Made by a program: the position numbers and the translations under genes
Shown here: piece after piece, positions 1,137 through 58,054 of the stretch
Numbering within the stretch: the first letter of the stretch is position 1
How the letters are laid out: every line of letters begins with the position of its first letter
Notes under the pieces: generated by a model
Told to the model about the DNA's origin: nothing
What the model saw: only the letters and a program-made list of their open reading frames with translations
Databases searched by the model: none
Assembly: GCA_043806135.1 (NCBI GenBank)
Contig: JAZDHG010000009.1
Span: 430 to 64,429 of the forward strand
Reading direction: 5' to 3'
DNA length: 64,000 bases
Source of the DNA: Candidatus Omnitrophota bacterium
GTDB taxonomy: Bacteria; Omnitrophota; Gorgyraeia; B26-G9

Positions 1137-1269
1137 GGGCCCGGTGAAATAAAGAAGCATGAAGCCGGGGCAAAGCCACGGGTCTAAAGGTTTTCCTGAA
1201 AAGACGGCCGGGTTACCGAAATAAAGGGAGAAAACCGATGATAGCCGAGCTACCGAAATAAAAGGTAGG
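1137..1269 (+). repeat. GC-rich intergenic block carrying three direct repeats of ACCGAAATAAAG, each lying in or beside a short hairpin
   Basis: cccggTGAAATAAAGaagcatgaagccggg (1139-1170); ttACCGAAATAAAGgg (1213-1228); ctaccGAAATAAAAggtagg (1250-1269). Local GC is far above the surrounding DNA. Confidence 0.5.
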
Positions 1270-1291
1270 TCGGTTTTTTGTCTTTAGAAGC

Positions 1292-1448
1292 CATCCTATA
1301 ACAGTGAAGTAGCGGATGTCTTGATTGCATAGATTAGAGAGGAGATTACAGTGATTATAGAGAAAGATTACTTAACTGAGAAAACAATCGCCTGCACTTA
1401 TAATGTGCATAGTGAACTTGACCCAGGATTTATACTAGGAGTGTGGAA
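1292..1448 (+). repeat. Degenerate copy of repeat family A: terminator-like hairpin, catagattag block, and a hairpin that ends in the SD
   Basis: catcctataacagtgaagtagcggatgtcttgatt... aligns with the 22585 and 57800 copies. The 3' end cccaggatttatactaggag supplies the SD for the ATG at 1449. The central ~130-nt domain of the full copies is missing here. Confidence 0.5.
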
Positions 1449-2111
1449 ATGAAAGGGAAAAAGGGATTTACCCCGTTAGAGAAAACCATTCGGCTTCGTT
1501 TAGGACAGGCCACCGATGAAGGCGGTAGTAAACACCTTACAGAAATCGCCTATGGTTTATCTTGTAAGAGGCCAAGGAGCTTAGGGGGGGCAATGCTGCT
1601 GTTTGCGCATATCGGCCGCCGCGTGAGAGAAAATTTTTCTAACAGTATAAAAAAACATAGTTCTCTAACGGGGTTTACTCTGGTAGAAATTCTTATATCA
1701 ACAGCTATAATGGCCATTGCGATCACTTCTACTTTGCAGATTTTGAACTATCTTCTGATGATGAATGAAACAAACGATGTTACTGTGCTATGTATGAATG
1801 AACTGCAGGGAAGGATAGATCAGGTTCGTAATACGCTTTATTCAGATGTAGTAGGTGTATATAACGGCAGGCAGTTTCAGATTGCTGAGTTGACTAATCG
1901 CGGTATACAGCATAGAGGGGTGTTTATTGCCAGTGAAATTGAGCCCTTATTTATAACTCGGGTAAAGGTAGTTGTTTGCTGGAGAAACAGAACAAGGATA
2001 ATCGGTGAGGATGTTAATTTTAACGGGGTGCTTGATGCAGGGGAAGATACTAACGGAAACGGAGAACTGGACTCTCCGATCATGATGGACGCGGCGGTTA
2101 TTGACAGATAA
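1449..2111 (+). CDS. Pseudopilin / minor pilin-like protein with an unusually long N-terminal region before the class III signal motif (SLTG|FTLVEIL)
   Basis: SD AGGAG sits 7 nt upstream of the ATG at 1449. The protein begins MKGKKGFTPLEK... and the canonical prepilin cleavage/methylation motif LTGFTLVEILISTAIMAIAITSTL appears about 80 residues in. The true start and processing are uncertain. Confidence 0.6.
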   Translation: MKGKKGFTPLEKTIRLRLGQATDEGGSKHLTEIAYGLSCKRPRSLGGAMLLFAHIGRRVRENFSNSIKKHSSLTGFTLVEILISTAIMAIAITSTLQILNYLLMMNETNDVTVLCMNELQGRIDQVRNTLYSDVVGVYNGRQFQIAELTNRGIQHRGVFIASEIEPLFITRVKVVVCWRNRTRIIGEDVNFNGVLDAGEDTNGNGELDSPIMMDAAVIDR

Positions 2112-5582: not shown

Positions 5583-5972
5583 ATGGACACAAAAGTAAAA
5601 ATTACGATAATCACGGTTGCAGCCTTATTGCTTATTATAATCGGTACAAGCATCCATCAGACTTTAAGGCCCCAAAAAACCGGTGTTTTAGACAAGTTTG
5701 AATCTGACACCGTCAAAAGGCAATCTCAGAGTGAACACAAAGACGTCATAAGAGCAAATGTTCCCATAAGAAACAGCAGGTATTTTTTTCCTAACAGGGA
5801 TAAGCCGAAAGTAAAGGTGGATCCAACTGCTATGGACGAAAAGGTTGAACTTGCCGGTGAACAGGATAGGGGTATGCCGGATGAATTTGCCCCTGATACA
5901 GGTCCTGAAATGAAGAACGTGGATGAATTAAAACTCTGGGACGAGCTTTCCGGTGAAAATAAGGCAAAGTAG
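5583..5972 (+). CDS. Hypothetical single-pass membrane protein
   Basis: N-terminal TM helix (IITVAALLLIIIGTSI) followed by a charged C-terminal region; no recognisable domain. Confidence 0.4.
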   Translation: MDTKVKITIITVAALLLIIIGTSIHQTLRPQKTGVLDKFESDTVKRQSQSEHKDVIRANVPIRNSRYFFPNRDKPKVKVDPTAMDEKVELAGEQDRGMPDEFAPDTGPEMKNVDELKLWDELSGENKAK

Positions 5973-6052
5973 CAATCGCCTGAAAAGGCGCATGATTAAA
6001 AGTTTGCTTGAACAGCGGTAAAAATAAAGACAACTCAGGGGAATGAGAAGGT

Positions 6053-7375
6053 TTGACTTTTTCCCGTTCCTCTTTTATAATAACTGTAATGCTCATAGGT
6101 AGAGATTTCTTATACTCAATAATTTTTTTACGTTTTGCTCTTGCGACGGTTATTCTGATAATCAATACTACTCTTTTTGGATTAGCCCATACGCAGGTTT
6201 ATTTCCTGATATCTACTATTTATATTCTCACCATTTTATATTCATTGATGGCTTTAGTAAAGTTTTCCAACACGGCTTTTTTATACCTGCAGATCATCCT
6301 TGATCTGGTAATTGAGACACTGCTTATTCACTACACCGGCGGGGTAGATTCTGTGCTGGTTTTATTGCTGCCGCTTTCGACTATTGCTGCCGGTATCGTT
6401 ATCTCCGGGCGGGCTGCGATAATGATCGCTCTCATGGGCAGCGCAATGTACGCAGGTATTGTGAGCCTTGAATTCTGGGGAATAATTCCTTTACCGGAGG
6501 GGTTTCTAAATGATCTTAATCATGAGGGGTCTTATGTCTTTGCACTGCTCTATTTCCGTGTTACCGTGTTCTGCATCATCGGTTTCTTAAGCGCTTATAT
6601 TTCAGAACAGTTAAGCAGAAAAGACAAAGTGCTTATTTCTTTGCAGGAAAAACTTCGCCGAGAAGACAGACTTTATGCTATCGGAAAACTGGCGGCCAAT
6701 ACGGCGCATGAAATACGCAACCCGCTGGCCTCAATCTCCGGCTGTGTGGAAGCGTTAAACGAGAGCCTTGTTTTAGAAGGCAATAATGAAAAACTATTCA
6801 AGCTGATCATGAAAGAGACTACGCGCTTGAACGATATAATCAACGGGCTGCTTGAATATGTTAAACCGCGCAGGCTGCAGCTTGAAAGGGTAAACATCTC
6901 AAAGATTCTGGATGAGGTCATATTCCTGATTAAAAGCAGTAAGGATTTTAAAAAAGATATCTTAATAAAAAAAGAAGGGCAAGAAAATGGTTTGAGCGTG
7001 ATCTGTGATCCCCAACAGATCAAACAGGTTTTTTTTAACCTGCTTATTAATGCGGTTGAGGCGGTAGATGAAAATGGACGTATAGTTATAACCCAGGAGG
7101 TCAATTCTGACAAGGGTCAAATTGTGATAAGTTTCAGTGATAACGGAGAGGGGATTTCCCCGGATCGCATGGAATCTCTTTTTGAGCCTTTTTCCAGCGG
7201 CAAAGATACAGGTGTGGGATTGGGGCTGGCCATAGTTCTTAGCATAATAGAGGAGCATAAAGGCAATATTAATGTCGAAACTAAAAAGGGTAAGGGGACG
7301 AAGTTTTCCGTTTGCTTACCTTTAAATGAAAAAAATACAGGTGAGAGTGATGCAGGGAAAGATACTTTTAGTTGA
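6053..7375 (+). CDS. pilS: Sensor histidine kinase, PilS-like (multi-TM N-terminus plus HisKA/HATPase)
   Basis: About six N-terminal TM helices; H-box TAHEIRNPLASI; G1/G2 boxes (DNGEGISPD, GVGLGLAIV). Immediately followed by a sigma54-activator response regulator. Confidence 0.6.
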   Translation: MTFSRSSFIITVMLIGRDFLYSIIFLRFALATVILIINTTLFGLAHTQVYFLISTIYILTILYSLMALVKFSNTAFLYLQIILDLVIETLLIHYTGGVDSVLVLLLPLSTIAAGIVISGRAAIMIALMGSAMYAGIVSLEFWGIIPLPEGFLNDLNHEGSYVFALLYFRVTVFCIIGFLSAYISEQLSRKDKVLISLQEKLRREDRLYAIGKLAANTAHEIRNPLASISGCVEALNESLVLEGNNEKLFKLIMKETTRLNDIINGLLEYVKPRRLQLERVNISKILDEVIFLIKSSKDFKKDILIKKEGQENGLSVICDPQQIKQVFFNLLINAVEAVDENGRIVITQEVNSDKGQIVISFSDNGEGISPDRMESLFEPFSSGKDTGVGLGLAIVLSIIEEHKGNINVETKKGKGTKFSVCLPLNEKNTGESDAGKDTFS

Positions 7376-8702
7376 TGATGAAAAAGACTTGTTGGAGTGG
7401 CTGAGCGTTGTATTAGAAAAGGAAGGTTATTCTGTGCGCAGTACTGTTTCCGCAGAGGAGGCGCTTAAAATCTTCCGCGCGGAACAATTTGATATGATTA
7501 TTTCTGATATTAGAATGACACCTGTGAGCGGCATTGAACTTCTCAGACAGGTTAAAAACCATAATCCGGAAATCATTGTCTTGATGATAACCGCATATGC
7601 TTCTGTGGATACGGCGATTAAGGCGCTGCGGTACGGGGCATATGATTATCTGATCAAGCCTTTTAAACTTGATGACATCAAACTTGTGATCAAAAAAGCA
7701 TTTTCCCAAAAGAGAATTTTTACGGAAGATATAAATGTACAAAAAAAGCTGAAAGAGCGGTACCGTTTTGCTAATATTATCGGTAAAAGCGCTACCATGC
7801 AGAAAATATTCGATCTGATCGATAAAGTGGCCAAGACAAATACAACTGTCCTCATAAACGGAGAAAGCGGGACTGGAAAAGAGCTGATCGCCAAGGCATT
7901 GCATTTTAACAGTTTAAAAGCCAATAAGCCGTTTGTCTCGATTGACTGCGGGGCCTTGCCTGAAGATCTGCTTGAGAGCGAGTTATTCGGGCATGTGAAG
8001 GGGTCTTTTACCGGAGCTATTGCCACTAAACAGGGGTTATTTGAAGTTGCCAGCGGCGGTACCTTGTTTTTAGATGAAATAGGTGAGACATCTCAGGCTA
8101 TGCAGGCTAAGCTGTTGCGAGCTTTGCAGGAGCGGGAGATACGGCCGGTGGGGGCAACCAAAACAATTAAGATTGATGTCAGGATCATTGCCGCTACGAA
8201 CAGTAATCTGGAAGAAGAGGTTAAACGGGAAAACTTCAGAAAGGACCTTTTTTATCGTATAAGCGTAATCAGCTTATTTTTGCCGCGTCTTTCGGCTCGA
8301 AAAGAAGATATTGAGCTTCTGGTAAGTCACTTTCTGAAAAAATACCAGATCCCGGGCAGGCCTATGAAAACAATTTCGAAGGAATGTATGGACTTGTTCC
8401 TGGAGTATAATTGGCCGGGTAATGTCCGTGAATTGGAAAATGCAATGGAGAGCGCAGTAACCTTATCAGAGAATGATAAGATTACTGAGGCTGACTTACC
8501 TGAAAGAATAAAGAAAATGGCGCAGTCAGGTGAGTCTGAGAGTGTTGATGAGGAGTCACTTAAGGGCAAGGTTGAGCAGTTTGAAAAAGAATTGATCGCA
8601 AAAACAATGAAAGAAGTGGGTGGTAATAAGAATCTTGTTGCTAAAATTCTGAAGATGACCCGGAGAAATCTTGATTATAAGATCAAAAGATATGGACTGT
8701 GA
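7350..8702 (+). CDS. pilR: Sigma54-dependent response regulator (NtrC/PilR family: REC + AAA+ sigma54-interaction + Fis HTH)
   Basis: REC domain (LLVDDE...D), Walker A GESGTGKE, GAFTGA-type motif GSFTGA, ESELFGH, C-terminal HTH. A sigma54 promoter lies just downstream, in front of the pilins. Confidence 0.7.
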   Translation: MQGKILLVDDEKDLLEWLSVVLEKEGYSVRSTVSAEEALKIFRAEQFDMIISDIRMTPVSGIELLRQVKNHNPEIIVLMITAYASVDTAIKALRYGAYDYLIKPFKLDDIKLVIKKAFSQKRIFTEDINVQKKLKERYRFANIIGKSATMQKIFDLIDKVAKTNTTVLINGESGTGKELIAKALHFNSLKANKPFVSIDCGALPEDLLESELFGHVKGSFTGAIATKQGLFEVASGGTLFLDEIGETSQAMQAKLLRALQEREIRPVGATKTIKIDVRIIAATNSNLEEEVKRENFRKDLFYRISVISLFLPRLSARKEDIELLVSHFLKKYQIPGRPMKTISKECMDLFLEYNWPGNVRELENAMESAVTLSENDKITEADLPERIKKMAQSGESESVDEESLKGKVEQFEKELIAKTMKEVGGNKNLVAKILKMTRRNLDYKIKRYGL

Positions 8703-21844: not shown

Positions 21845-22584
21845 AATATAAAGTTAATTTAGAAATTTTCGAAGGGCCGCTTGACTTATTGCTTTACCTT
21901 ATAAGGAAAAGCCATCTTAATATCTATGATATTCCTATTGCTAAGATTACTGAGCAGTATTTGGAATACCTGGAATTTATGCGTTTGCTGGATCTTGGTA
22001 TTGCCGGGGAATTTCTGGTTATGGCAGCGACCTTGATGCATATAAAATCAAAAATGCTGCTGCCTCCTGATGAAACCGAGCCTGAAGTTGAAGAAGAAGA
22101 TCCTAGGGCGGAACTTGTAAAAAAACTTCTTGAGTATAAGAAATTCAAGGAGGCGGCAAGCTATTTAGAGGAATGTGAAACCGTACAGCGTAAAATATTC
22201 AAGCGCATTAATCCTGCAGCGGATGTTGAGCCGGAAGAGGAGATTTTCTTTGAAACAAGCCTTTTTGATCTGATCGGAGCTTTTTCTAAAGCCTTGAAAG
22301 ATGTGCCCCGCGATATTTTCAAAGAGATCATTGAAGATGAGTTTACAGTTGATGGTAAGATACACGACCTGCTTCATGTTTTGGTCAAAAAGAGAAAACT
22401 CTCACTCAGCGAAATGTTTGAAAATGCAAAGAATAAGGTGGAGGTAGTGGTCACTTTTTTGGCTATTTTGGAGCTGATCAGACAGCAGGAAATCGTGGCG
22501 GCTCAAAAGGGACTGTTCGGAGAAATTTTTGTTTTTCTCAACGAAGAAAGAATTTTGCCTCCAATGCATGTTAGTACAATATAG
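21841..22584 (+). CDS. scpA: Segregation and condensation protein A
   Basis: ScpA N-terminus (FEGPLDLLLYLIRKSHLNIYDIPIAKIT). Confidence 0.85.
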   Translation: MKYKVNLEIFEGPLDLLLYLIRKSHLNIYDIPIAKITEQYLEYLEFMRLLDLGIAGEFLVMAATLMHIKSKMLLPPDETEPEVEEEDPRAELVKKLLEYKKFKEAASYLEECETVQRKIFKRINPAADVEPEEEIFFETSLFDLIGAFSKALKDVPRDIFKEIIEDEFTVDGKIHDLLHVLVKKRKLSLSEMFENAKNKVEVVVTFLAILELIRQQEIVAAQKGLFGEIFVFLNEERILPPMHVSTI

Positions 22585-22854
22585 ACATCCTGTAACGAGT
22601 GAGCATAGGGATGTCTTGATCTCAGAGATTAAAAACTTGATCACAGCGATATACTAATATAAATTAATCTTTGCCCCGAGAAATCTGCACCCTGAAATTT
22701 TTTTGGAATTTCGGGTACTTAGTCCTGGGAATGCTGCGCATTCCACAGGGGAAGATTTCCGGAGTTGGGTGCCCCGCAAGGGTATAATCTATTAATAACC
22801 GTTGTAATCAGGTATAATCCAGATTATGTATGAGGATTATACCAGGAGTTAAGT
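22585..22854 (+). repeat. Repeat family A, full copy (terminator-like hairpin + ~130-nt structured core + alternative helices ending in the scpB SD)
   Basis: About 95% identical over ~190 nt to 57856-58054; the 5' hairpin CATCC...GGATG+UCUUG resembles copies at 57803 and 1292. Confidence 0.7.
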
Positions 22855-27625: not shown

Positions 27626-27838
27626 GAATATCTGCCTGAATTTGTGGAAGCGCTTAAAAATTCACCATCATCTTTTATTAATTCGAGATTAAACACGAAA
27701 GAACCATTTTAAGTAAACCTCTTTAGAGAACTCTGTTCTCTGACGGTTTACGCGGACGGTGGCTTTAAACTATCGTCAATTTTAATAGGTAATAACTGCC
27801 GATTAAAATCAGTGGCTTCCTCTAACGGAGTAAACGGG

Positions 27839-28513
27839 ATGAGCATGATTATTGCTATAGATGGGCCTGCGGGCGCGGGCAAAAGTACGATCGCAAAACT
27901 GCTGGCTGAAAAATTGGGCGTTCTTTATGTAGATACAGGTGCTATGTACAGGGCACTGACATTAAAAGTGCTTCGTCTTAATGCTGACTTTAAGGACACG
28001 GAAAAACTTATTAAGATCGCATTTGATACCGATATAAAACTAAAAAAAAGCAAAGATCACAATACCATTGTCCTGCTTGACGGTGAGGATGTGACCGCGC
28101 CTATCAGAAAGCCTGAAGTGACTAATTCTGTGTTTCATGTGGCGAGCATATCCCCCATACGTAACTTGATGGTGAAATTTCAAAGAGAGTATGCCCATAT
28201 CGACAATATTGTGATGGAAGGCAGAGATATCGGAACGGTGGTTTTTCCCAAGGCGCAAAGAAAGTTTTATCTTGACGCCAAGGCAATAATTCGCGCACGC
28301 AGACGCAAGCTTGAACTTGAGCAAAAAGGCATTGAGATAGATATCGAAGATATAGTCAAACAGATTAAAGACAGAGACGCAAAAGATAAAGCGCGCAAAT
28401 GCGGGCCGCTTAAAAAAGCGGAAGACGCGGTTTATATCGATACTTCAAACATGAACATTCCGGAGGTTGTAAATTGCCTGTTTACGTATATAAAAGATGA
28501 AAAAAAGAAATAA
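27839..28513 (+). CDS. cmk: Cytidylate kinase
   Basis: IAIDGPAGAGKST P-loop and the YVDTGAMYR motif. Confidence 0.9.
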   Translation: MSMIIAIDGPAGAGKSTIAKLLAEKLGVLYVDTGAMYRALTLKVLRLNADFKDTEKLIKIAFDTDIKLKKSKDHNTIVLLDGEDVTAPIRKPEVTNSVFHVASISPIRNLMVKFQREYAHIDNIVMEGRDIGTVVFPKAQRKFYLDAKAIIRARRRKLELEQKGIEIDIEDIVKQIKDRDAKDKARKCGPLKKAEDAVYIDTSNMNIPEVVNCLFTYIKDEKKK

Positions 28514-39740: not shown

Positions 39741-40232
39741 GTGAGTAAAGATGTTTTTACGCATCATCGGCTTCAGTTTAAATCCCATATCGGGTTTTTG
39801 CTGGCAGCCATCGGCTCTGCTGTGGGGATGGGAAATATATGGCGTTTTTCGTATCTTTGTTATAAAAACGACGGCGTGTTTCTGATGCCGTACTTTATAG
39901 CCTTGTTCGCAGGCGCTATCCCCTTGATGAGCCTGGAGATAGCTCTAGGACATAAAATGCGCGGTTCAGCACCGGCATCGGTTGTCAGTATTGATAAAAA
40001 ATGGGAGCGGGATGTTTCTGTTAAATTCATTGCTGCGCTTATATTACTGGGATTACTGCTCACTACGATATTTGAGGAGATCGCTGCGCCCTACGGTAAT
40101 TACTCACGCCTTGCGATTATCCTTATTGGCAGAGATGGGATCATCATGACTGTTTTTGTCGCGTTTTTTGCCGCCTTAAGCGCATGGAAAGTAGATCCGC
40201 AGCACATGATGATTGAACTGGGAAAAAATTAG
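39741..40232 (+). pseudogene. Truncated neurotransmitter:sodium symporter (NSS/SNF) family transporter; only the N-terminal ~95 aa are family-like
   Basis: GFLLAAIGSAVGMGNIWRFSYLCYKNDGVFLMPYFIALFAGAIPLMSLEIALG matches NSS TM1-TM2. The ORF is 163 aa against ~450-500 for an intact NSS. GTG start. Confidence 0.5.
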
Positions 40233-42371: not shown

Positions 42372-43013
42372 ATGATAGAAAACGTGCAGAATAAGAAAAA
42401 CGGTTTTACCCCGTTAGAGAAAGATAATAATTTTAATCGCGGGTTGAAAACTTATTTAGCCGATGCTAGCTTAAAGGTATCACCTGAGCATGCCGTTAGA
42501 GTTCGAAGAACTCTAACGGGGTTTACCCCGCTTAGAGATAATAAGAAGAAACATAATGTTCTCGGAGCATACTTTATAACAGGTGTTAATAATAATTTTT
42601 GTTCAAATAAAAAACATGGTTATAAATCTCTAACGGGGTTTACCTTAATTGAAATATTAATCGCCTTGACGATTTTGGGCATTGGATTGGTTTCGGTGTT
42701 GGCTTATTTGCCGATTGCTCTTGATGCTTCAAAAAAAGCAGCGGATTTAACAACAGCAGCTTTGATAGCTCAAAAATACATTGAGGGAATAAAATCAGCA
42801 AGCAGTAATGATATAACTTCTGCGGACGCATATGATACCTTGGGAGTATATGCGGCGGATAGTGATTTTGATGGTTTTTCTTATTTTATATCTATAAGCA
42901 ATCCCGGCGCATCAGACACGAAAGAAGTTACTGTAAATGTACGGTGGAGCTTTAAGGGTAAAGATAGTGTTGAAACTTTCAGAACGATGATTGTAAAATA
43001 CGATCCGAACTAA
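42372..43013 (+). CDS. Pseudopilin-like protein with a long stop-free N-terminal region before the SLTG|FTLIEILIALTILGIG motif
   Basis: Canonical prepilin motif about 90 codons into the ORF. The upstream region carries repeated GFTPLEK / LTGFTPL coding motifs that are really nucleotide-level inverted repeats. The start is uncertain. Confidence 0.55.
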   Translation: MIENVQNKKNGFTPLEKDNNFNRGLKTYLADASLKVSPEHAVRVRRTLTGFTPLRDNKKKHNVLGAYFITGVNNNFCSNKKHGYKSLTGFTLIEILIALTILGIGLVSVLAYLPIALDASKKAADLTTAALIAQKYIEGIKSASSNDITSADAYDTLGVYAADSDFDGFSYFISISNPGASDTKEVTVNVRWSFKGKDSVETFRTMIVKYDPN

Positions 43014-55624: not shown

Positions 55625-57799
55625 ATGCCGAAGAATTTGAAGGTCAAATTTTTATTAATAAGCGCATTAGTTGTTTTTTGTGTTTGGGTTATTTACCCGA
55701 TTCAGGAAAAAATTAATCTCGGACTTGATCTGCAGGGCGGGATATTTTTGACCTTGCAAGTCGATATGAGCAAGCTGCCCAAAAATATTAAGGAAGATGT
55801 ACGTTCGGATATTGTGGACAGGACGATTGAGATTATCCGCAAAAGAGTCGATCAATTCGGGGTAAAGGAACCCTCGATAACCCGCCAGGGAGAAAACAGG
55901 ATCATTGTTCAGCTGCCCGGGGTTACGGACAGAAAGCGGGCCCGCGCACTTATCGGAAAAACAGCTCAGCTTGAGTTCAGGATCGTAAACGATGATGATG
56001 AGATGATGAGAGCGGCGATTGAAGGCGATGTTCCTGCCGGATATGTATTAACTAAAGACGAGGATGATAAAGAACTGCTTCTTGAAGAAACAGCAGTAAT
56101 GACCGGAGACAGCCTGTCGGATGCTATTGTCAGCCGTGATCAATATGGTAGACCAAGTGTAAAACTGGAGTTTACCGGAACAGGGGCGACTAAATTTTCC
56201 AATATAACAGGTGCGAATGTAAACAGGAGACTGGCTATTGTGCTTGATAATGAGGTTTATTCGGCACCAATGATCAGAGAACGCATCTCAGGCGGAAACG
56301 CGGAAATTACAGGAAGCTTCAGCGCTAACGATGCTAAAGACCTTTCTACTGTATTACGCACCGGTGCATTGCCGGCTCCCATAACATTCGGGGAAGAGCG
56401 TACGGTCGGACCGCTGCTTGGGCAGGATTCCATAAATAGCGGGGTGAAAGCGACACTTTACGGAGGTCTTGCGGTGTTCTTATTTATGGCCTTTTATTAC
56501 TTGGTAGGAGGTGTCCTGGCAAATATTGCCCTGCTTTTTAATATCCTACTGGTGTTTGCTGCTCTTGTGATCATGAAAGCTACGCTGACTTTGCCCGGTA
56601 TTGCCGGTATTGGACTGACTATCGGTATGGCTGTGGATGCGAATGTGTTGATAAACGAGCGCATCAGAGAAGAATTAAAACTCGGGAAGTCAACACGTAC
56701 GGCAATAAATAACGGTTACAGCCGCGCTTTCCCGGCGATTTTAGATTCAAATGTCACAACGATAATTGCGGCTATTCTGCTGGTTTGGCTGGGCTCAGGT
56801 CCTGTAAGGGGATTCGGCCTTACCCTGATTATCGGTTTAATAGCAAGTATGTTTACGGCGATTGTAGTGACCCGTATGCTTCTTGACATGCTTACTTTGA
56901 AATGGAAAGAACTGCCGCTTAAGATGATGCAGCTTATTTCTGAGACAAAAATTGATTTTATTAAAGCAAGATGGATTTTCTATACGATATCGATCGTTCT
57001 CATAGTCGCCGGAATGTTTTTATTCTCCCGCCGGGGTGATGATAACTATGGCATTGATTTTGCCGGCGGTTCCCTTCAGGAGTTTCAATTCGAAAAACCG
57101 GTGGAGATTGACAGTCTGCGTCTGGCGATGTCAAAAATCGGCCTGGCAGATGCTTTGATACAGCAGGATAAAAAGAAGCCGGAGATTGTTCTGATCAGAA
57201 CTGAAGAAGATAAAGCAGACGCAATTATAGGTGAATTCGCAAACACATTTCCGGACAATAAGGCAGAGATATTGAGTGTTGAAAGCGTTGGTCCGGTCGT
57301 GGGAAGGCTTTTAAAGAAAAACGCGGCAATGGCGTTTATGCTTGCATTGCTGGCGATATGTATATATATCTGGATAAGGTTCAAAGACTTTGTCTACGGG
57401 ATTGCCGGTGTTGTCTCTCTATTCCATGACGTTCTTGTTGCCATTGCTTTTTGCGCCCTGACAAACAGACCGATTGACCTGTTAATAGTTACTGCGTTAA
57501 TGACAATAGCAGGGTATTCTATAAACGACACAATCGTTACCTATGACCGTATTCGGGAAAATCTACGCTTAATGCGCAAAACTTCTTTCAGAGATGTTAT
57601 TAATATAAGTATCAACCAGACCCTGGCACGTACAATATGGACATCGGTAACCACCTTGTTTATTGTTTTTGCCATTTACCTGATGGGCGGCAGGGTGCTG
57701 CATAATTTTGCCTTTGTATTGATAATCGGCCTTTTCAGCGGAGTTTACTCAACTGTTTTTATTGCCAGTCCGCTGGTCTATGCTTGGGAGAAAAAGTAA
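55625..57799 (+). CDS. secDF: Protein translocase subunit SecDF (fused)
   Basis: 724 aa; two periplasmic domains and 12 TM helices; typical SecD (ALIGKTAQLEFR) and SecF regions. Confidence 0.9.
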   Translation: MPKNLKVKFLLISALVVFCVWVIYPIQEKINLGLDLQGGIFLTLQVDMSKLPKNIKEDVRSDIVDRTIEIIRKRVDQFGVKEPSITRQGENRIIVQLPGVTDRKRARALIGKTAQLEFRIVNDDDEMMRAAIEGDVPAGYVLTKDEDDKELLLEETAVMTGDSLSDAIVSRDQYGRPSVKLEFTGTGATKFSNITGANVNRRLAIVLDNEVYSAPMIRERISGGNAEITGSFSANDAKDLSTVLRTGALPAPITFGEERTVGPLLGQDSINSGVKATLYGGLAVFLFMAFYYLVGGVLANIALLFNILLVFAALVIMKATLTLPGIAGIGLTIGMAVDANVLINERIREELKLGKSTRTAINNGYSRAFPAILDSNVTTIIAAILLVWLGSGPVRGFGLTLIIGLIASMFTAIVVTRMLLDMLTLKWKELPLKMMQLISETKIDFIKARWIFYTISIVLIVAGMFLFSRRGDDNYGIDFAGGSLQEFQFEKPVEIDSLRLAMSKIGLADALIQQDKKKPEIVLIRTEEDKADAIIGEFANTFPDNKAEILSVESVGPVVGRLLKKNAAMAFMLALLAICIYIWIRFKDFVYGIAGVVSLFHDVLVAIAFCALTNRPIDLLIVTALMTIAGYSINDTIVTYDRIRENLRLMRKTSFRDVINISINQTLARTIWTSVTTLFIVFAIYLMGGRVLHNFAFVLIIGLFSGVYSTVFIASPLVYAWEKK

Positions 57800-58054
57800 A
57801 GACATCCTATAACGATAAAGTAGCAGGATGTTTTGATCACATAGATTAGATGGAGATTAATGGTTTAATCCTTGCCCCGAGAAATCTGCACCCTGAAATT
57901 TTTTTGGAATTTCGGGTACTTAGTCCTGGGAATGCTGCGCATTCCACAGGGGAAGATTTCCGGAGTTGGGTGCCCCGCAAGGGTATAATCTGTTATTAAT
58001 CGTTGTAATCAGGTATAATCCAGCTTAAGCATGAGGATTATACCAAGGAGTTTT
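57800..58054 (+). repeat. Repeat family A, full copy 2 (ends in the SD of rnfE)
   Basis: About 95% identical to 22664-22854 over the core. Confidence 0.7.

What the first reader, a model, noticed from the sequence alone, without database searches (positions are those of the whole stretch)
1449..1680. Inverted CTCTAACGGGG / CCCCGTTAGAG repeats embedded in stop-free N-terminal regions of two pseudopilin genes
In locus 1, ACCCCGTTAGAGAA (1470-1483) and its exact reverse complement TTCTCTAACGGGGT (1660-1673) flank about 175 nt of unusually GC-rich sequence. In locus 2 (42372-42640) the same 11-mer occurs five times in alternating orientation: 42409-19, 42492-501, 42511-21, 42526-37 (with the GC insert CCCCGCTTAGAG) and 42628-38. 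The group includes a near-palindrome CTCTAACGGGG-TTTA-CCCCGCTTAGAG. The motif is read in different frames at different copies (P-L-E, A-V-R-V, S-L-T-G), so it is conserved at the nucleotide level, not the protein level. Both ORFs nevertheless stay open for roughly 80-90 codons upstream of the real prepilin motif (SLTG|FTLVE, SLTG|FTLIE). Both begin, right after a good SD in locus 1, with a pseudo-prepilin sequence MKGKKGFTPLEK / MIENVQNKKNGFTPLEK. I see three possibilities: (a) a structured RNA leader or attenuator with alternative long-range helices; (b) operator half-sites for a pilus regulator; or (c) genuine pilins with extraordinarily long, internally repeated leader peptides. None of these is a textbook feature of pseudopilin genes.
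Basis: seen in the sequence. Interest (0 to 1): 0.7.

Follow-up and report, generated by a model that had tools for sequence, protein, structure and literature searches.

The report
Mobile palindromic element inside prepilin leaders
The inverted 11-mers are the ends of three copies of a small mobile palindromic DNA element, related to elements that carry a GIY-YIG nuclease gene, which landed exactly on the Gly-Phe-Thr cleavage codons of two pseudopilin genes, stayed in frame and rebuilt the cleavage site, so the insert is probably translated as an oversized leader peptide and cut off.

Summary
In detail: CCCCGTTAGAG/CTCTAACGGGG occurs 5 times exactly (0.35 expected), only in two pseudopilin genes. 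The motifs are terminal inverted repeats of three units (1471-1673; 42409-42521; 42526-42638), each flanked by TTTA. With one TTTA they measure 207, 117 and 117 nt, are stop-free, and deleting them restores canonical prepilins. Syntenic orthologs have clean empty sites (L004, L247), and locus 2 exists with 0, 1 or 2 units. The same arms occur in many candidate phyla, mostly outside pilins. A canonical 113-nt form has three covarying hairpins, and the target duplication is exactly 4 bp (T-N-N-A). At 275-281-nt spacing, 118 of 124 arm pairs enclose an 86-aa GIY-YIG nuclease ORF whose C-terminus (…KRFLSLTG) is the right arm, so the window copies are MITE-like derivatives. The arms are open in one frame only. 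Insertion into the TTT-A of G-F-T selects that frame, and GGGG+TTTA rebuilds G|FT. In pilin contexts 26/28 units are in frame and stop-free versus 34/85 elsewhere (p=5e-7). Predicted leaders are 75 and 89 aa (known range 6-26). Not an RNA leader or operator. Closest known: Ssn/SRM GIY-YIG–hairpin systems and Rickettsia RPEs. Processing by prepilin peptidase and nuclease-driven mobility are inferred.

The parts
1449..2111 (+). Pseudopilin gene 1 (220 aa). The predicted leader is 75 aa and the mature part starts FTLVEILIS.
   Evidence: (PF07963 N_methyl at residues 75-94). The closest orthologs P0002-P0004 are 81-86% identical and 151 aa long, which equals 220-69.
1467..1470 (+). Left TTTA, the first copy of the target-site duplication. 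It forms the Phe codon plus the first base of the Thr codon of the original G-F-T.
   Evidence: The empty site in L004 reads GGATTTAC|GCTTGTAGAA.
1471..1673 (+). Element copy 1 (203 nt). It is a composite, decayed copy: canonical hairpin-1 and hairpin-2 remnants plus a nested mini-hairpin.
   Evidence: 97 positions align to the 113-nt consensus; inverted repeat 1470-1483 / 1661-1674, 100% complementary.
1471..1481 (+). Left arm CCCCGTTAGAG, read as (T)PLE.
1619..1645 (+). Degenerate nested mini-hairpin CCGCGTGAGAGAAAA-T-TTTTCTAACAG, read as RRVRENFSN.
   Evidence: D2: 1619-1633 is 87% identical to the left arm. Intact nested minis of the same type occur in L006, L050 and L065.
1663..1673 (+). 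Right arm CTCTAACGGGG, read as (S)LTG. Its last codon GGG (1671-1673) supplies Gly-1 of the cleavage site.
1674..1677 (+). Right TTTA, the second copy of the duplication. It rebuilds Phe+1 and the start of Thr+2.
42372..43013 (+). Pseudopilin gene 2 (213 aa). The predicted leader is 89 aa and the mature part starts FTLIEILIA.
   Evidence: Orthologs have leaders of 6-11 aa (no unit) or 43-54 aa (one unit).
42405..42408 (+). TTTA, the target duplication to the left of unit 2a.
   Evidence: The empty site in L247 reads AACGGTTTTAC|TCTAATTGAA.
42409..42521 (+). Element copy 2a (113 nt). It is a decayed canonical form, 79/113 identical to the family consensus.
42493..42519 (+). Subterminal hairpin (hairpin 3) CCGTTAGAGTTC-GAA-GAACTCTAACGG. 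Its right half is the right arm, which can alternatively pair with the 5' arm at 42409-42419.
   Evidence: I3, 12 nt, 100% complementary; helix 3 is 97.8% paired across the family.
42522..42525 (+). TTTA shared between the two tandem units.
42526..42638 (+). Element copy 2b (113 nt). The interior is unrecognisable and AT-rich (30% GC). The left arm carries one extra C (CCCCGCTTAGAG) and the right arm is intact.
42639..42642 (+). TTTA to the right of unit 2b. Together with GGG at 42636-42638 it rebuilds G|FT.

Best explanation
The inverted 11-mers are the terminal inverted repeats of three non-autonomous, MITE-like copies of a palindromic mobile element family. The family is widespread in Omnitrophota, CPR/Patescibacteria, Planctomycetota, Nitrospirota and other phyla. 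Its full-size members (about 275-281 nt between arm ends) carry an 86-aa single-domain GIY-YIG nuclease gene inside the hairpin loop, and the last codons of that gene (…K-R-F-L-S-L-T-G) are the right arm. Elements insert at T-N-N-A tetranucleotides with a 4-bp duplication.

Shown: in this window the target was the TTT-A of the Gly-Phe-Thr codons at the prepilin-peptidase cleavage site of two pseudopilin genes, once in pilin 1 and twice in tandem in pilin 2. The arms contain TAG or TAA in two of three frames. The only open frame is the one imposed by a Phe-codon TTT target. The common unit lengths (114 or 117 nt including the duplication) are multiples of three. The terminal GGGG plus the duplicated TTTA re-creates Gly(-1)|Phe(+1)-Thr(+2). 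The insert therefore converts a 6-11-aa leader into a 75- or 89-aa hydrophilic, net-positive leader without altering the mature pilin.

Inferred: the extended precursor is translated from the original start codon and inserted N-in. Prepilin peptidase cleaves it at the rebuilt G|F, which makes the insertion nearly neutral. This is a protein-level removal of a DNA parasite. Also inferred: mobilisation in trans by a cognate GIY-YIG nuclease acting on the folded single-stranded hairpin, by analogy with Ssn nucleases. No such gene lies in these 64 kb.
For: 1. Insertion polymorphism. L004 is syntenic to locus 1 and has GGATTTAC|GCTT with no element. L247 is syntenic to locus 2 and has GGTTTTAC|TCTA. 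L002 has one unit at the same point. Orthologs of pilin 2 with and without inserts are interleaved by identity, and their inserts have different interiors.

2. Family. The left-flank TTTA is conserved in 109/113 units, and the search did not force that side. The canonical 113-nt consensus has three hairpins: 91.8% of cells are paired, 12 pairs carry compensatory changes, 0/500 shuffles reach this, and slid registers give 26-57%.

3. Target duplication of exactly 4 bp. 17/46 unbiased copies have identical flanking 4-mers against 2.4 expected, and none match at 5 bp or more. Nested copies show CTGA, TTAG and TTTA.

4. Link to the gene-bearing form. 118/124 arm pairs spaced 240-270 nt apart encode a GIY-YIG ORF. 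There are 92 distinct intact ORFs. Pfam PF01541 matches at E=8e-16. L017 keeps only the first 23 codons between the arms, which is an internal-deletion derivative.

5. Fit to the pilin site. 26/28 pilin-context units are multiples of 3 and stop-free, against 34/85 elsewhere (Fisher p=5e-7). The canonical form is open only in frame +0 (23/37) and frame -0 (20/37), against 9% for shuffles. In the window the element occupies 2 of the 3 in-phase TTT-AC prepilin sites and none of about 1,227 other TTTA/TAAA sites.

6. Census. Of about 87 representative proteins of at least 100 aa that carry the translated element, at least 24 are prepilins with the element ending at G|F, giving leaders of 35-119 aa.

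7. The host genes look intact. The mature parts are 81-86% identical to uninterrupted orthologs. The SD and ATG are conserved upstream of the insert. The leaders are net +10.
Against: There is no direct evidence that the long precursors are made or cleaved. Known leaders are 6-26 aa, or up to about 30 aa (PMC4471445). No prepilin peptidase gene and no GIY-YIG gene was found in the 64-kb window. In a flank-unbiased sample only 1/48 short copies lies in a pilin, so the pilin site is a minority niche. The enrichment could come from selection, from targeting, or from gene conversion among pilin paralogs. For gene-bearing copies the flanks are often unequal (TTTA…TGAA in 23 cases and its reverse complement in 11), so a simple cut-and-paste model with a 4-bp duplication does not explain everything. 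No transposition activity is known for any GIY-YIG enzyme of this type. The perfect arms next to decayed interiors could also reflect a host-level function of the arms.
Confidence: 0.8

Rival explanations
1. Exapted RNA structure. The element is mobile in origin, but in these genes the 12-14-bp arm helix and the alternative 3' hairpin now act in the mRNA as a translational or stability control of pilin expression. It is not exclusive with the main explanation.
For: The arms form a 14-bp perfect helix 20 nt downstream of the start codon, and the right arm can pair alternatively with the subterminal copy. The hairpins covary family-wide, and G-U pairs occur on the sense strand. The arms are perfect although the interiors have decayed. 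A c-di-GMP riboswitch already controls the locus 1 operon.
Against: No Rfam match was found. The fold z-score is only -2.1. Close orthologs do without the sequence. In units 2a and 2b the internal hairpins have decayed. The same element is mostly intergenic or in unrelated genes in many phyla. Covariation is equally expected for an ssDNA transposition intermediate.
Confidence: 0.1
2. Ssn-like recognition sites. The hairpins are kept as targets of a host GIY-YIG ssDNA nuclease that restricts or modulates recombination and transformation around surface-structure genes, as proposed for NTS repeats in Neisseria. Under this view they are not selfish passengers.
For: Ssn nucleases bind hairpin repeats and cut ssDNA upstream of them. 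NTS repeats cluster next to membrane and surface protein genes and modulate transformation (PMC11893778). Here the arms are strictly conserved while the interiors drift. Type IV pilus genes are themselves linked to DNA uptake (established knowledge).
Against: NTS repeats are rarely inside genes (2%), whereas these sit inside ORFs. The published SRM consensus does not match the arms. Presence is patchy among close orthologs. The 4-bp duplications and internal-deletion derivatives point to transposition. No nuclease gene lies in the window.
Confidence: 0.07
3. The insertions have inactivated or crippled the two pseudopilin genes. The long ORFs are then coincidental remnants, that is, young pseudogenes.
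For: Leaders of 75-89 aa are about three times the known maximum. The neighbouring SNF transporter gene at locus 2 is an internally deleted remnant, so gene decay occurs in this genome. The interiors of units 2a and 2b have drifted.
Against: All three units are in frame and stop-free. Roughly 9% of shuffled 120-nt sequences are stop-free, and only 1 in 3 lengths is a multiple of 3. Across genomes 26/28 pilin-context units keep the frame. The mature parts are full length and 81-86% identical to intact orthologs. The interior drift without any stop implies that the frame was under selection while the sequence changed.
Confidence: 0.06
4. The motifs are operator half-sites for a pilus regulator such as the PilR-like sigma-54 activator encoded at 7326-8702.
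For: The sequences are palindromic, lie in two pilin genes, and a PilS/PilR-like pair is nearby.
Against: Identical arms occur in dozens of phyla in non-pilin and intergenic contexts, and they flank GIY-YIG genes. They lie inside the ORFs, downstream of the start codons. Orthologous loci with the same regulator pair lack them (L004).
Confidence: 0.01

Closest known systems
Ssn / SRM systems (NTS-ssnA-NTS; Chenal et al. 2025, Nat Commun 16:2388, PMC11893778)
   Same: Both have a small (about 90 aa) single-domain GIY-YIG nuclease gene bracketed by its own palindromic repeat. The repeat is amplified to many copies in the genome. The repeat has an orientation. The authors themselves note the IS-like architecture. 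A hairpin recognised as ssDNA is a plausible mechanism here too.
   Different: The published SRM consensus does not match these arms. Here the gene lies inside one hairpin, with one half-site on each side, rather than between two complete hairpins. The ORF runs into the right arm. The closest solved relatives are UPF0213 proteins, and cd10448 membership could not be tested. The hosts are mainly candidate phyla, whereas most SsnA homologs are reported in Pseudomonadati. NTS repeats are rarely intragenic. That paper hypothesised mobility, whereas here there is insertion polymorphism, a 4-bp duplication and deletion derivatives.
Rickettsia palindromic elements (RPEs)
   Same: RPEs are palindromic repeats of about 100-150 bp that insert in frame into protein-coding genes and are translated as extra peptide segments (review PMC10969869). 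The Ssn paper lists Rickettsia among the SRM-rich genomes.
   Different: RPEs insert into many unrelated metabolic genes, with the peptide retained in the protein. Here the preferred in-ORF niche is one defined junction, the prepilin cleavage site, where the extra peptide is predicted to be cut off. Sequence relatedness to RPEs was not tested.
Bacterial MITEs (e.g. Correia/NEMIS, ERIC, BOX)
   Same: These are small, have terminal inverted repeats and a short target duplication, lack a transposase, occur in many copies, derive from a larger gene-bearing element with the same ends, and occasionally form in-frame ORF fusions.
   Different: The gene-bearing partner encodes a GIY-YIG nuclease, not a DDE, serine or HUH transposase. 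The arms are identical across phyla, which is unusual for MITEs.
REP/BIME with RAYT, and IS200/IS605 with PATEs
   Same: These are hairpin repeats dispersed by a small nuclease-type enzyme that acts on folded ssDNA and has a tetranucleotide target preference. IS608 inserts 3' of TTAC (from memory).
   Different: Those systems use HUH Y1 transposases and make no target duplication. Here a 4-bp duplication is statistically clear and the associated gene is GIY-YIG.
Class III (prepilin) signal peptides
   Same: Gly-1, Phe+1, Glu+5 and a hydrophobic helix of about 21 residues are all present after the insert. The leader is hydrophilic and positively charged.
   Different: The leaders are 75 and 89 aa here, and 35-119 aa in homologues, against 6-26 aa, or up to about 30 aa, in described systems. 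An internal pseudo-site GFTPLE lies at the left junction.

Membership tests
MITE (miniature inverted-repeat transposable element) | Small size (less than about 500 bp) with no transposase gene | tested here: met
   The window units are 203, 113 and 113 nt. They have no Pfam hit on their translation and no GIY-YIG similarity.
MITE (miniature inverted-repeat transposable element) | Terminal inverted repeats | tested here: met
   The arms are 11-14 nt and 100% complementary. They are identical across genomes.
MITE (miniature inverted-repeat transposable element) | Target-site duplication and empty sites in related genomes | tested here: met
   The duplication is 4 bp: 17/46 identical against 2.4 expected, and 0 at 5 bp or more. 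Empty sites were found in L004 and L247.
MITE (miniature inverted-repeat transposable element) | A larger autonomous element with the same ends that encodes a recognised transposase | tested here: inconclusive
   The same arms enclose a GIY-YIG ORF in 118/124 cases, and a deletion derivative exists (L017). No GIY-YIG enzyme of this kind is a demonstrated transposase.
Ssn / SRM system (PMC11893778) | Single-domain GIY-YIG protein of about 90-100 aa | tested here: met
   The ORF is 86 aa. PF01541 matches at E=8e-16 over residues 1-67. There are 92 distinct intact ORFs.
Ssn / SRM system (PMC11893778) | [quoted passage not shown] | not testable with these tools
   No CDD search is available and no SsnA sequence is held. 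The closest solved relatives are UPF0213 proteins: 1ZG2 at E=4e-11 and 1YWL at E=3e-5.
Ssn / SRM system (PMC11893778) | Gene flanked on both sides by its hairpin repeat | tested here: inconclusive
   The gene is flanked on both sides by the repeat arms. Each side is only a half-site, and the two halves pair with each other. Complete 31-35-nt hairpins exist as separate short copies.
Ssn / SRM system (PMC11893778) | Repeat matches the SRM consensus HGTCWYN(0-2)YYVSBRHN(0-5)WNVSBRGN(0-2)RNCYNB | tested here: not met
   There was no match on either strand of the minimal or canonical element. The NTS positive control matched.
Ssn / SRM system (PMC11893778) | Site-specific cleavage of ssDNA near the hairpin | not testable with these tools
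   This requires a biochemical assay.
Rickettsia palindromic elements | Palindromic element of about 100-150 bp inserted in frame in ORFs and translated | tested here: met
   The units are in frame and stop-free in pilins. In-frame copies also occur in unrelated proteins, such as P0126 (2421 aa), an ABC-ATPase-like protein (P0218) and a glyS-like ORF in L104. Translation itself is inferred.
Rickettsia palindromic elements | Sequence belongs to one of the RPE families | not tested
IS200/IS605-type PATE or REP/RAYT | No target duplication and an associated HUH Y1 transposase | tested here: not met
   A 4-bp duplication is present and the associated ORF is GIY-YIG.
Structured cis-regulatory RNA (riboswitch, leader or attenuator) | Match to a described RNA family, or conservation at orthologous loci | tested here: not met
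   Rfam searches in gathering and E-value modes gave nothing on the units. Orthologous loci lack the sequence.
Class III signal peptide (prepilin) | Gly-1, hydrophobic N-terminal helix and Glu+5 | tested here: met
   PF07963 matches at residues 75-94 and 89-109. The sequences read G|FTLVEILIS and G|FTLIEILIA.
Class III signal peptide (prepilin) | Short hydrophilic leader (6-26 aa, up to about 30) | tested here: not met
   The leaders are 75 and 89 aa, against the range given in PMC4471445. They are hydrophilic and net positive.

The most novel reading that the evidence does not exclude
A cross-phylum family of GIY-YIG-nuclease/hairpin transposable elements has evolved ends that fit the prepilin cleavage junction. 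It inserts into the Phe codon of G-F-T, is read in its only open frame and regenerates G|FT. The host's prepilin peptidase then removes the parasite at the protein level, a functional analogue of an intein or intron that relies on a host protease. In gene-bearing copies at this site (L014 twice, L098, L204, L224) the nuclease itself would be synthesised as the prepilin 'leader' from the pilin's expression signals and released into the cytoplasm by the peptidase. This would also be the first bacterial transposon mobilised by a small GIY-YIG enzyme.
Probability: 0.3. Interest if true: 0.85.

Novelty: new variant of a known kind. Interest (0 to 1): 0.62.

Why it matters
If the reading holds, it matters for four reasons.

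1. It explains a recurrent annotation oddity in Omnitrophota, CPR and related phyla: prepilins with 35-119-aa N-terminal extensions carrying 'GFTPLEK…SLTG'. It also warns that these extensions are mobile DNA and not pilin domains.

2. It gives the first comparative-genomic evidence that a GIY-YIG/hairpin-repeat unit of the Ssn type actually moves. The evidence is filled and empty sites, a 4-bp duplication, nested copies and internal-deletion derivatives. The 2025 Ssn paper raised mobility only as a hypothesis.

3. It suggests a new way for selfish DNA to be tolerated inside a gene: landing just upstream of a host protease site, so that the encoded peptide is discarded with the leader.

4. It predicts that prepilin peptidases accept leaders several times longer than any tested. 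This is directly testable and is useful for engineering secretion or pilus display.

Tried and rejected
- Invertible promoter or phase-variation switch flanked by inverted repeats. Rejected: orthologs lack the whole segment rather than showing two orientations, the same arms occur in non-pilin contexts, and no recombinase gene was identified among the ORFs scanned around the two loci.
- IS200/IS605-like insertion 3' of TT(T)AC without duplication. Rejected by the exact 4-bp duplication statistics and by nested copies with CTGA and TTAG.
- Integron attC-like site. Rejected by reasoning: the arms are arranged GTT…AAC, the opposite polarity to RYYYAAC…GTTRRRY.
- Programmed ribosomal bypassing or an intein. 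Rejected: there is no stop at a take-off site, and the units (39-69 aa) are too small for an intein.
- Rfam in gathering and permissive modes found nothing on the units.
- The viral-contig scan gave 3 hits without partner arms, which I treat as chance.
- The word-index protein search with the element peptide found only 7 tiny ORFs. It was replaced by the exhaustive profile search.
- The SRM consensus from the Ssn paper gave no match.
- The paper's supplements, which might have held an SsnA sequence, are not held.
- A search for a GIY-YIG gene or a prepilin peptidase motif in the window found none.
- An extended target preference beyond TTTA in non-pilin copies was not seen. The G enrichment at -6 and -7 is accounted for by the pilin copies.
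- The 25% share of pilin contexts in the genome scan is inflated, because the search pattern required …TTTAC. The flank-unbiased share is 1/48.
Full report
OBSERVATION

The motif CTCTAACGGGG and its reverse complement CCCCGTTAGAG occur five times exactly in the 64-kb window. All five copies lie in the 5' parts of two pseudopilin genes. Dinucleotide-preserving shuffles give a mean of 0.35 for matches with up to one mismatch, and none of 100 shuffles reaches the observed six.

The repeat finder gives a 14-nt perfect inverted repeat at 1470-1483 / 1661-1674. In locus 2 it gives arms at 42408-42419 / 42511-42522 and 42527-42539 / 42626-42638. It also finds a perfect 12+3+12 hairpin at 42493-42519.

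Counted with one TTTA, the units are 207, 117 and 117 nt, all multiples of three, and all are stop-free in the pilin frame. Removing the units exactly leaves MKGKKG|FTLVEILIS and MIENVQNKKNG|FTLIEILIA, which are textbook prepilin N-termini.

THEY ARE INSERTIONS

The organism is a Candidatus Omnitrophota bacterium, according to the names that public sources attach to the homologues.

The closest homologues of pilin 1 are 81-86% identical and 151 aa long. That is exactly 220 minus 69 aa, and they start MKKKKGFTLVEILIS. L004 is syntenic with locus 1: T2SS-F, pseudopilins, a 922-aa protein, a histidine kinase and a sigma-54 response regulator. Its DNA reads AAGGGATTTAC|GCTTGTAGAA at the point where the window reads AAGGGATTTAC[CCCG…GGGGTTTAC]TCTGGTAGAA.

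For locus 2 all three states exist in fully syntenic contexts (SNF, EF-G, pilin, YebC, RuvCAB, QueH). L247 has no unit (AACGGTTTTAC|TCTAATTGAA). L002 has one unit. The window has two units in tandem.

Among pilin 2 orthologs, insert-bearing proteins are 53-81% identical in the mature part, and empty ones are 62-78% identical. The two groups are interleaved, and the inserts differ in length and interior sequence. This points to repeated independent insertions or losses at the same junction. The mature parts remain full length and well conserved, so the host genes do not look dead.

THE ELEMENT FAMILY

In genomes whose pilins are only 30-55% identical, the arms are identical at the nucleotide level: TTTACCCCGTTAGAGAAAG … AGTTCTCTAACGGGGTTTAC.

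The hosts include Omnitrophota, many CPR/Patescibacteria lineages, Planctomycetota, Nitrospirota, Deltaproteobacteria, Elusimicrobia, Atribacteria and others. Only 31 of the 126 matches are followed by a prepilin motif. Most of the others are followed by stop codons or by unrelated sequence.

From these loci I extracted 113 complete units. The left-flank TTTA, which the search did not force, is present in 109 of them. Unit lengths peak at 35 nt (a plain hairpin, TTTA-CCCCGTTAGAGAAC-GAA-GTTCTCTAACGGGG) and at 114 and 117 nt.

The canonical 113-nt core has three hairpins:
- H1 is CCACCGAC-TTTA-GTCGGTGG.
- H2 is GCTGACGGTGG-TTTAATG-CCACCGTCAGC.
- H3 is CCGTTAGAGGAC-GAA-GTTCTCTAACGG.

The right half of H3 is the right arm, which can pair alternatively with the 5' arm. 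On an alignment of 19 units, 91.8% of cells form standard pairs and 12 pairs carry double (compensatory) changes in 42 cells. None of 500 shuffles reaches these values, and slid registers give only 26-57% pairing.

The window's copies compare with this consensus as follows. Unit 2a is a decayed copy of the canonical form, with 79 of 113 positions identical. Unit 2b keeps only its arms. Unit 1 is a composite with H1 and H2 remnants and a degenerate nested mini-hairpin at 1619-1645. Perfect arms with free-running interiors are what one expects of non-autonomous elements that are selected only for their ends.

TARGET DUPLICATION

Nested copies show GCTGA|…|CTGA, GTTAG|…|TTAG and GGTTTA|…|TTTA.

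I also examined a sample that is unbiased with respect to flanks: short units that happen to lie on metagenome contigs retrieved for another reason. The two flanking 4-mers are identical in 17 of 46 cases, against 2.4 expected from permutation, and never at 5 bp or more. The 4-mers are TAAA, TCAA, TGAA, TTGA, TTCA and TTTA, which gives T-N-N-A. This rules out an IS200/IS605-type mechanism, which makes no duplication.

THE GENE-BEARING FORM

Two long units in a Yanofskybacteria genome (L014), and one in L098, contain a complete GIY-YIG ORF between the same arms. L017 retains only the first 23 codons of that ORF in a 140-nt unit, so it is an internal-deletion derivative.

Of 124 arm pairs, 118 enclose a GIY-YIG ORF with a constant architecture: CCCCGTTAGAGAT, then 8-20 nt, then ATG and an 86-codon ORF. 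The ORF's last eight codons, AAG CGT TTC CTA TCT CTA ACG GGG (K R F L S L T G), run into and form the right arm. In 78 of the 118, a stop codon follows the GGG directly.

There are 92 distinct intact ORFs, about 60-80% identical to one another. Pfam places them in PF01541 GIY-YIG at E=8e-16. A profile built from them finds UPF0213 proteins as the closest solved structures (1ZG2 at E=4e-11 and 1YWL at E=3e-5), followed weakly by SLX1.

The 'S-L-T-G' that precedes the pilin cleavage site in the window is therefore the fossil C-terminus of a nuclease gene. Other small GIY-YIG genes, in L030 and L077, are bracketed by different CCCCG…/…CGGGG inverted repeats. The architecture is therefore more general than this one arm sequence.

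One loose end remains. Gene-bearing copies often have unequal flanks: TTTA…TGAA in 23 cases, its reverse complement in 11, and some flanks that are themselves inverted repeats. A simple duplication model does not cover all of them.

WHY PILINS

The arms contain TAG or TAA in two of the three frames on either strand. Canonical units are stop-free in frame +0 (TTT ACC CCG TTA GAG…) in 23 of 37 copies and in frame -0 in 20 of 37. They are stop-free in 0-2 of 37 copies in the other frames. Shuffled sequences are stop-free 9% of the time.

If the TTTA target is the Phe codon plus the first base of the Thr codon of G-F-T, three things follow:
- The element is automatically read in its only open frame.
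- The common unit lengths restore the frame downstream.
- The terminal GGGG plus the duplicated TTTA re-creates Gly-Phe-Thr.

In pilin contexts 26 of 28 units are multiples of three and stop-free, against 34 of 85 elsewhere (Fisher p=5e-7). The pilin context was defined only by the downstream sequence, so ORF calling does not bias this comparison.

In the window, only three of the five prepilin-like genes offer an in-phase TTT-AC, at 1671, 9350 and 42636. The element occupies two of these sites, one of them twice. It occupies none of the roughly 1,227 other TTTA/TAAA sites.

Across 1.84 billion representative proteins, 142 carry the translated canonical element. Of about 87 that are at least 100 aa long, at least 24 are prepilins with the element ending exactly at G|F, giving leaders of 35-119 aa. 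The rest are in-frame insertions in unrelated proteins or N-terminal tails ahead of transmembrane helices.

The pilin junction is a minority site for the family overall: 1 of 48 flank-unbiased short copies and 3 of 118 gene-bearing copies. The 25% share in the genome scan is inflated because the search pattern required TTTAC. I cannot separate targeting from purifying selection, or from gene conversion among pilin paralogs. Several genomes carry near-identical units in adjacent pilin genes (L019, L068, L036, L007).

MECHANISM: SHOWN AND INFERRED

Shown:
- The repeats are the ends of a mobile palindromic element.
- Three copies lie in frame at the G-F-T codons.
- The insertions are absent from orthologs.
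- The family is tied to a GIY-YIG gene.
- The frame and stop bias is specific to pilin contexts.

Inferred:
- The precursors are translated from the original start codons. The SD and ATG of pilin 1 match those of L004. No in-frame start codon exists in unit 2b (read directly from the sequence).
- The 75- and 89-aa leaders stay cytoplasmic. They are hydrophilic, with K+R of 15-16 against D+E of 5-6.
- Prepilin peptidase cuts at the rebuilt G|F. Described leaders are 6-26 aa, or up to about 30 aa (PMC4471445), so this would extend the substrate range about threefold.
- The GIY-YIG protein mobilises the element by acting on the folded ssDNA. This is by analogy with Ssn nucleases, which bind their hairpin repeat and cut ssDNA upstream of it (PMC11893778).

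The window contains neither a GIY-YIG gene nor an obvious prepilin peptidase gene. With only 64 kb in hand, that absence is uninformative.

COMPARISON WITH KNOWN SYSTEMS

The closest described system is Ssn/SRM. These are single-domain GIY-YIG ssDNA nucleases whose genes are flanked by their own amplified hairpin repeats. The authors called the architecture 'identical to' an IS and hypothesised a mobile or domesticated origin.

The differences are these:
- The published SRM consensus does not match the arms.
- The gene lies inside a single hairpin.
- The ORF overlaps the right arm.
- The closest solved relatives are UPF0213 proteins.
- cd10448 membership could not be tested.

The in-frame, translated insertions parallel the Rickettsia palindromic elements. 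By the usual criteria the window copies qualify as MITEs, except that the partner gene is not a known transposase. Full-text searches found no description of a palindromic element at the prepilin junction, nor of transposition by this type of GIY-YIG gene.

VERDICT

The finding is real and is explained by mobile DNA. It is not a dedicated RNA leader or an operator. It is a new variant of known kinds (Ssn-like nuclease/hairpin unit, RPE-like in-frame MITE). It has one unusual and testable feature, a precise fit to the prepilin cleavage junction that should let the host peptidase discard the inserted peptide.

My confidence is high that the motifs are arms of this element family. It is moderate for translation and cleavage, and low to moderate for nuclease-driven transposition.

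Noticed in passing
window 1146-1220 (+), with a terminator-like hairpin and T-run at about 1250-1279: A c-di-GMP-I riboswitch aptamer (RF01051, 36.3 bits against a gathering score of 35) lies directly upstream of the locus 1 pseudopilin operon. The same terminator sequence precedes the orthologous pilin in L004.
   Followed up: partly
window 1281-1445, with related copies at 57799-57859 and 22583-22650: Compared with L004, the window has about 165 extra nt between the riboswitch terminator and the pilin SD. The first 62 nt or so are a second repeat family: a hairpin GACATCC…GGATGTC followed by TTGATYNCATAGATTAGA. It is also present in two other intergenic regions (84% and 75% identity). It is unrelated to the pilin-leader element.
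   Followed up: partly
window 1351-1452 (+): A 33-codon ORF (VIIEKDYLTEKTIACTYNVHSELDPGFILGVWK) with a strong SD (GAGAGGAG) lies inside that extra segment. Its stop overlaps the pilin start codon (ATGA), so translational coupling with pilin 1 is possible. It is absent from L004.
   Followed up: no
window 39741-40223 (+): The SNF-family transporter gene next to locus 2 is an internally deleted remnant. Residues 1-90 and 418-507 of the 509-aa ortholog (L247) are fused into a 163-aa ORF.
   Followed up: partly
L030 4488-4736 and 4075-4308; L077 3929-4156: Other small GIY-YIG genes are bracketed by different inverted repeats that also begin CCCCG or CCCG, such as CCCCGCACCTAT…/…ATAGGTGCGGGG and CCCGCACCCAGC/GCTGGGTGCGGG. 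This suggests a broader superfamily of nuclease-in-hairpin units with co-varying arm sequences.
   Followed up: no
L014 1527-1810 and 2290-2568 (-); L098 2564-2847 (-); L204 1039-1315; L224 2174-2457: Complete GIY-YIG ORFs are fused in frame, without a stop, to the G|F(T/S) start of prepilin genes. In at least L098 a stop codon lies between the upstream pilin reading frame and the nuclease ATG, so translation presumably starts at the nuclease's own ATG. The mature pilin could then be made only by cleaving a nuclease-pilin fusion.
   Followed up: partly
L104 about 5890-6010; proteins P0126 (2421 aa, residues 1589-1632), P0218, P0125, P0139: Canonical elements are inserted in frame in unrelated proteins: a glyS-like ORF, a giant protein, an ABC-ATPase-like protein and even a GIY-YIG gene. 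Others form N-terminal tails just ahead of transmembrane or signal-anchor helices (P0136, P0138, P0170, P0192).
   Followed up: partly
family-wide (37 units of 100-125 nt from L005-L123): The element is stop-free in exactly one frame on each strand (23/37 and 20/37, against 9% for shuffles), also in non-pilin copies. It therefore seems intrinsically built to be translatable in either orientation.
   Followed up: partly
window 27820-27830 (+): There is a single one-mismatch copy of the motif (CTCTAACGGAG) followed by TAAAC, near the start of the ORF 27812-28513. No partner arm lies nearby, so it is probably chance.
   Followed up: no
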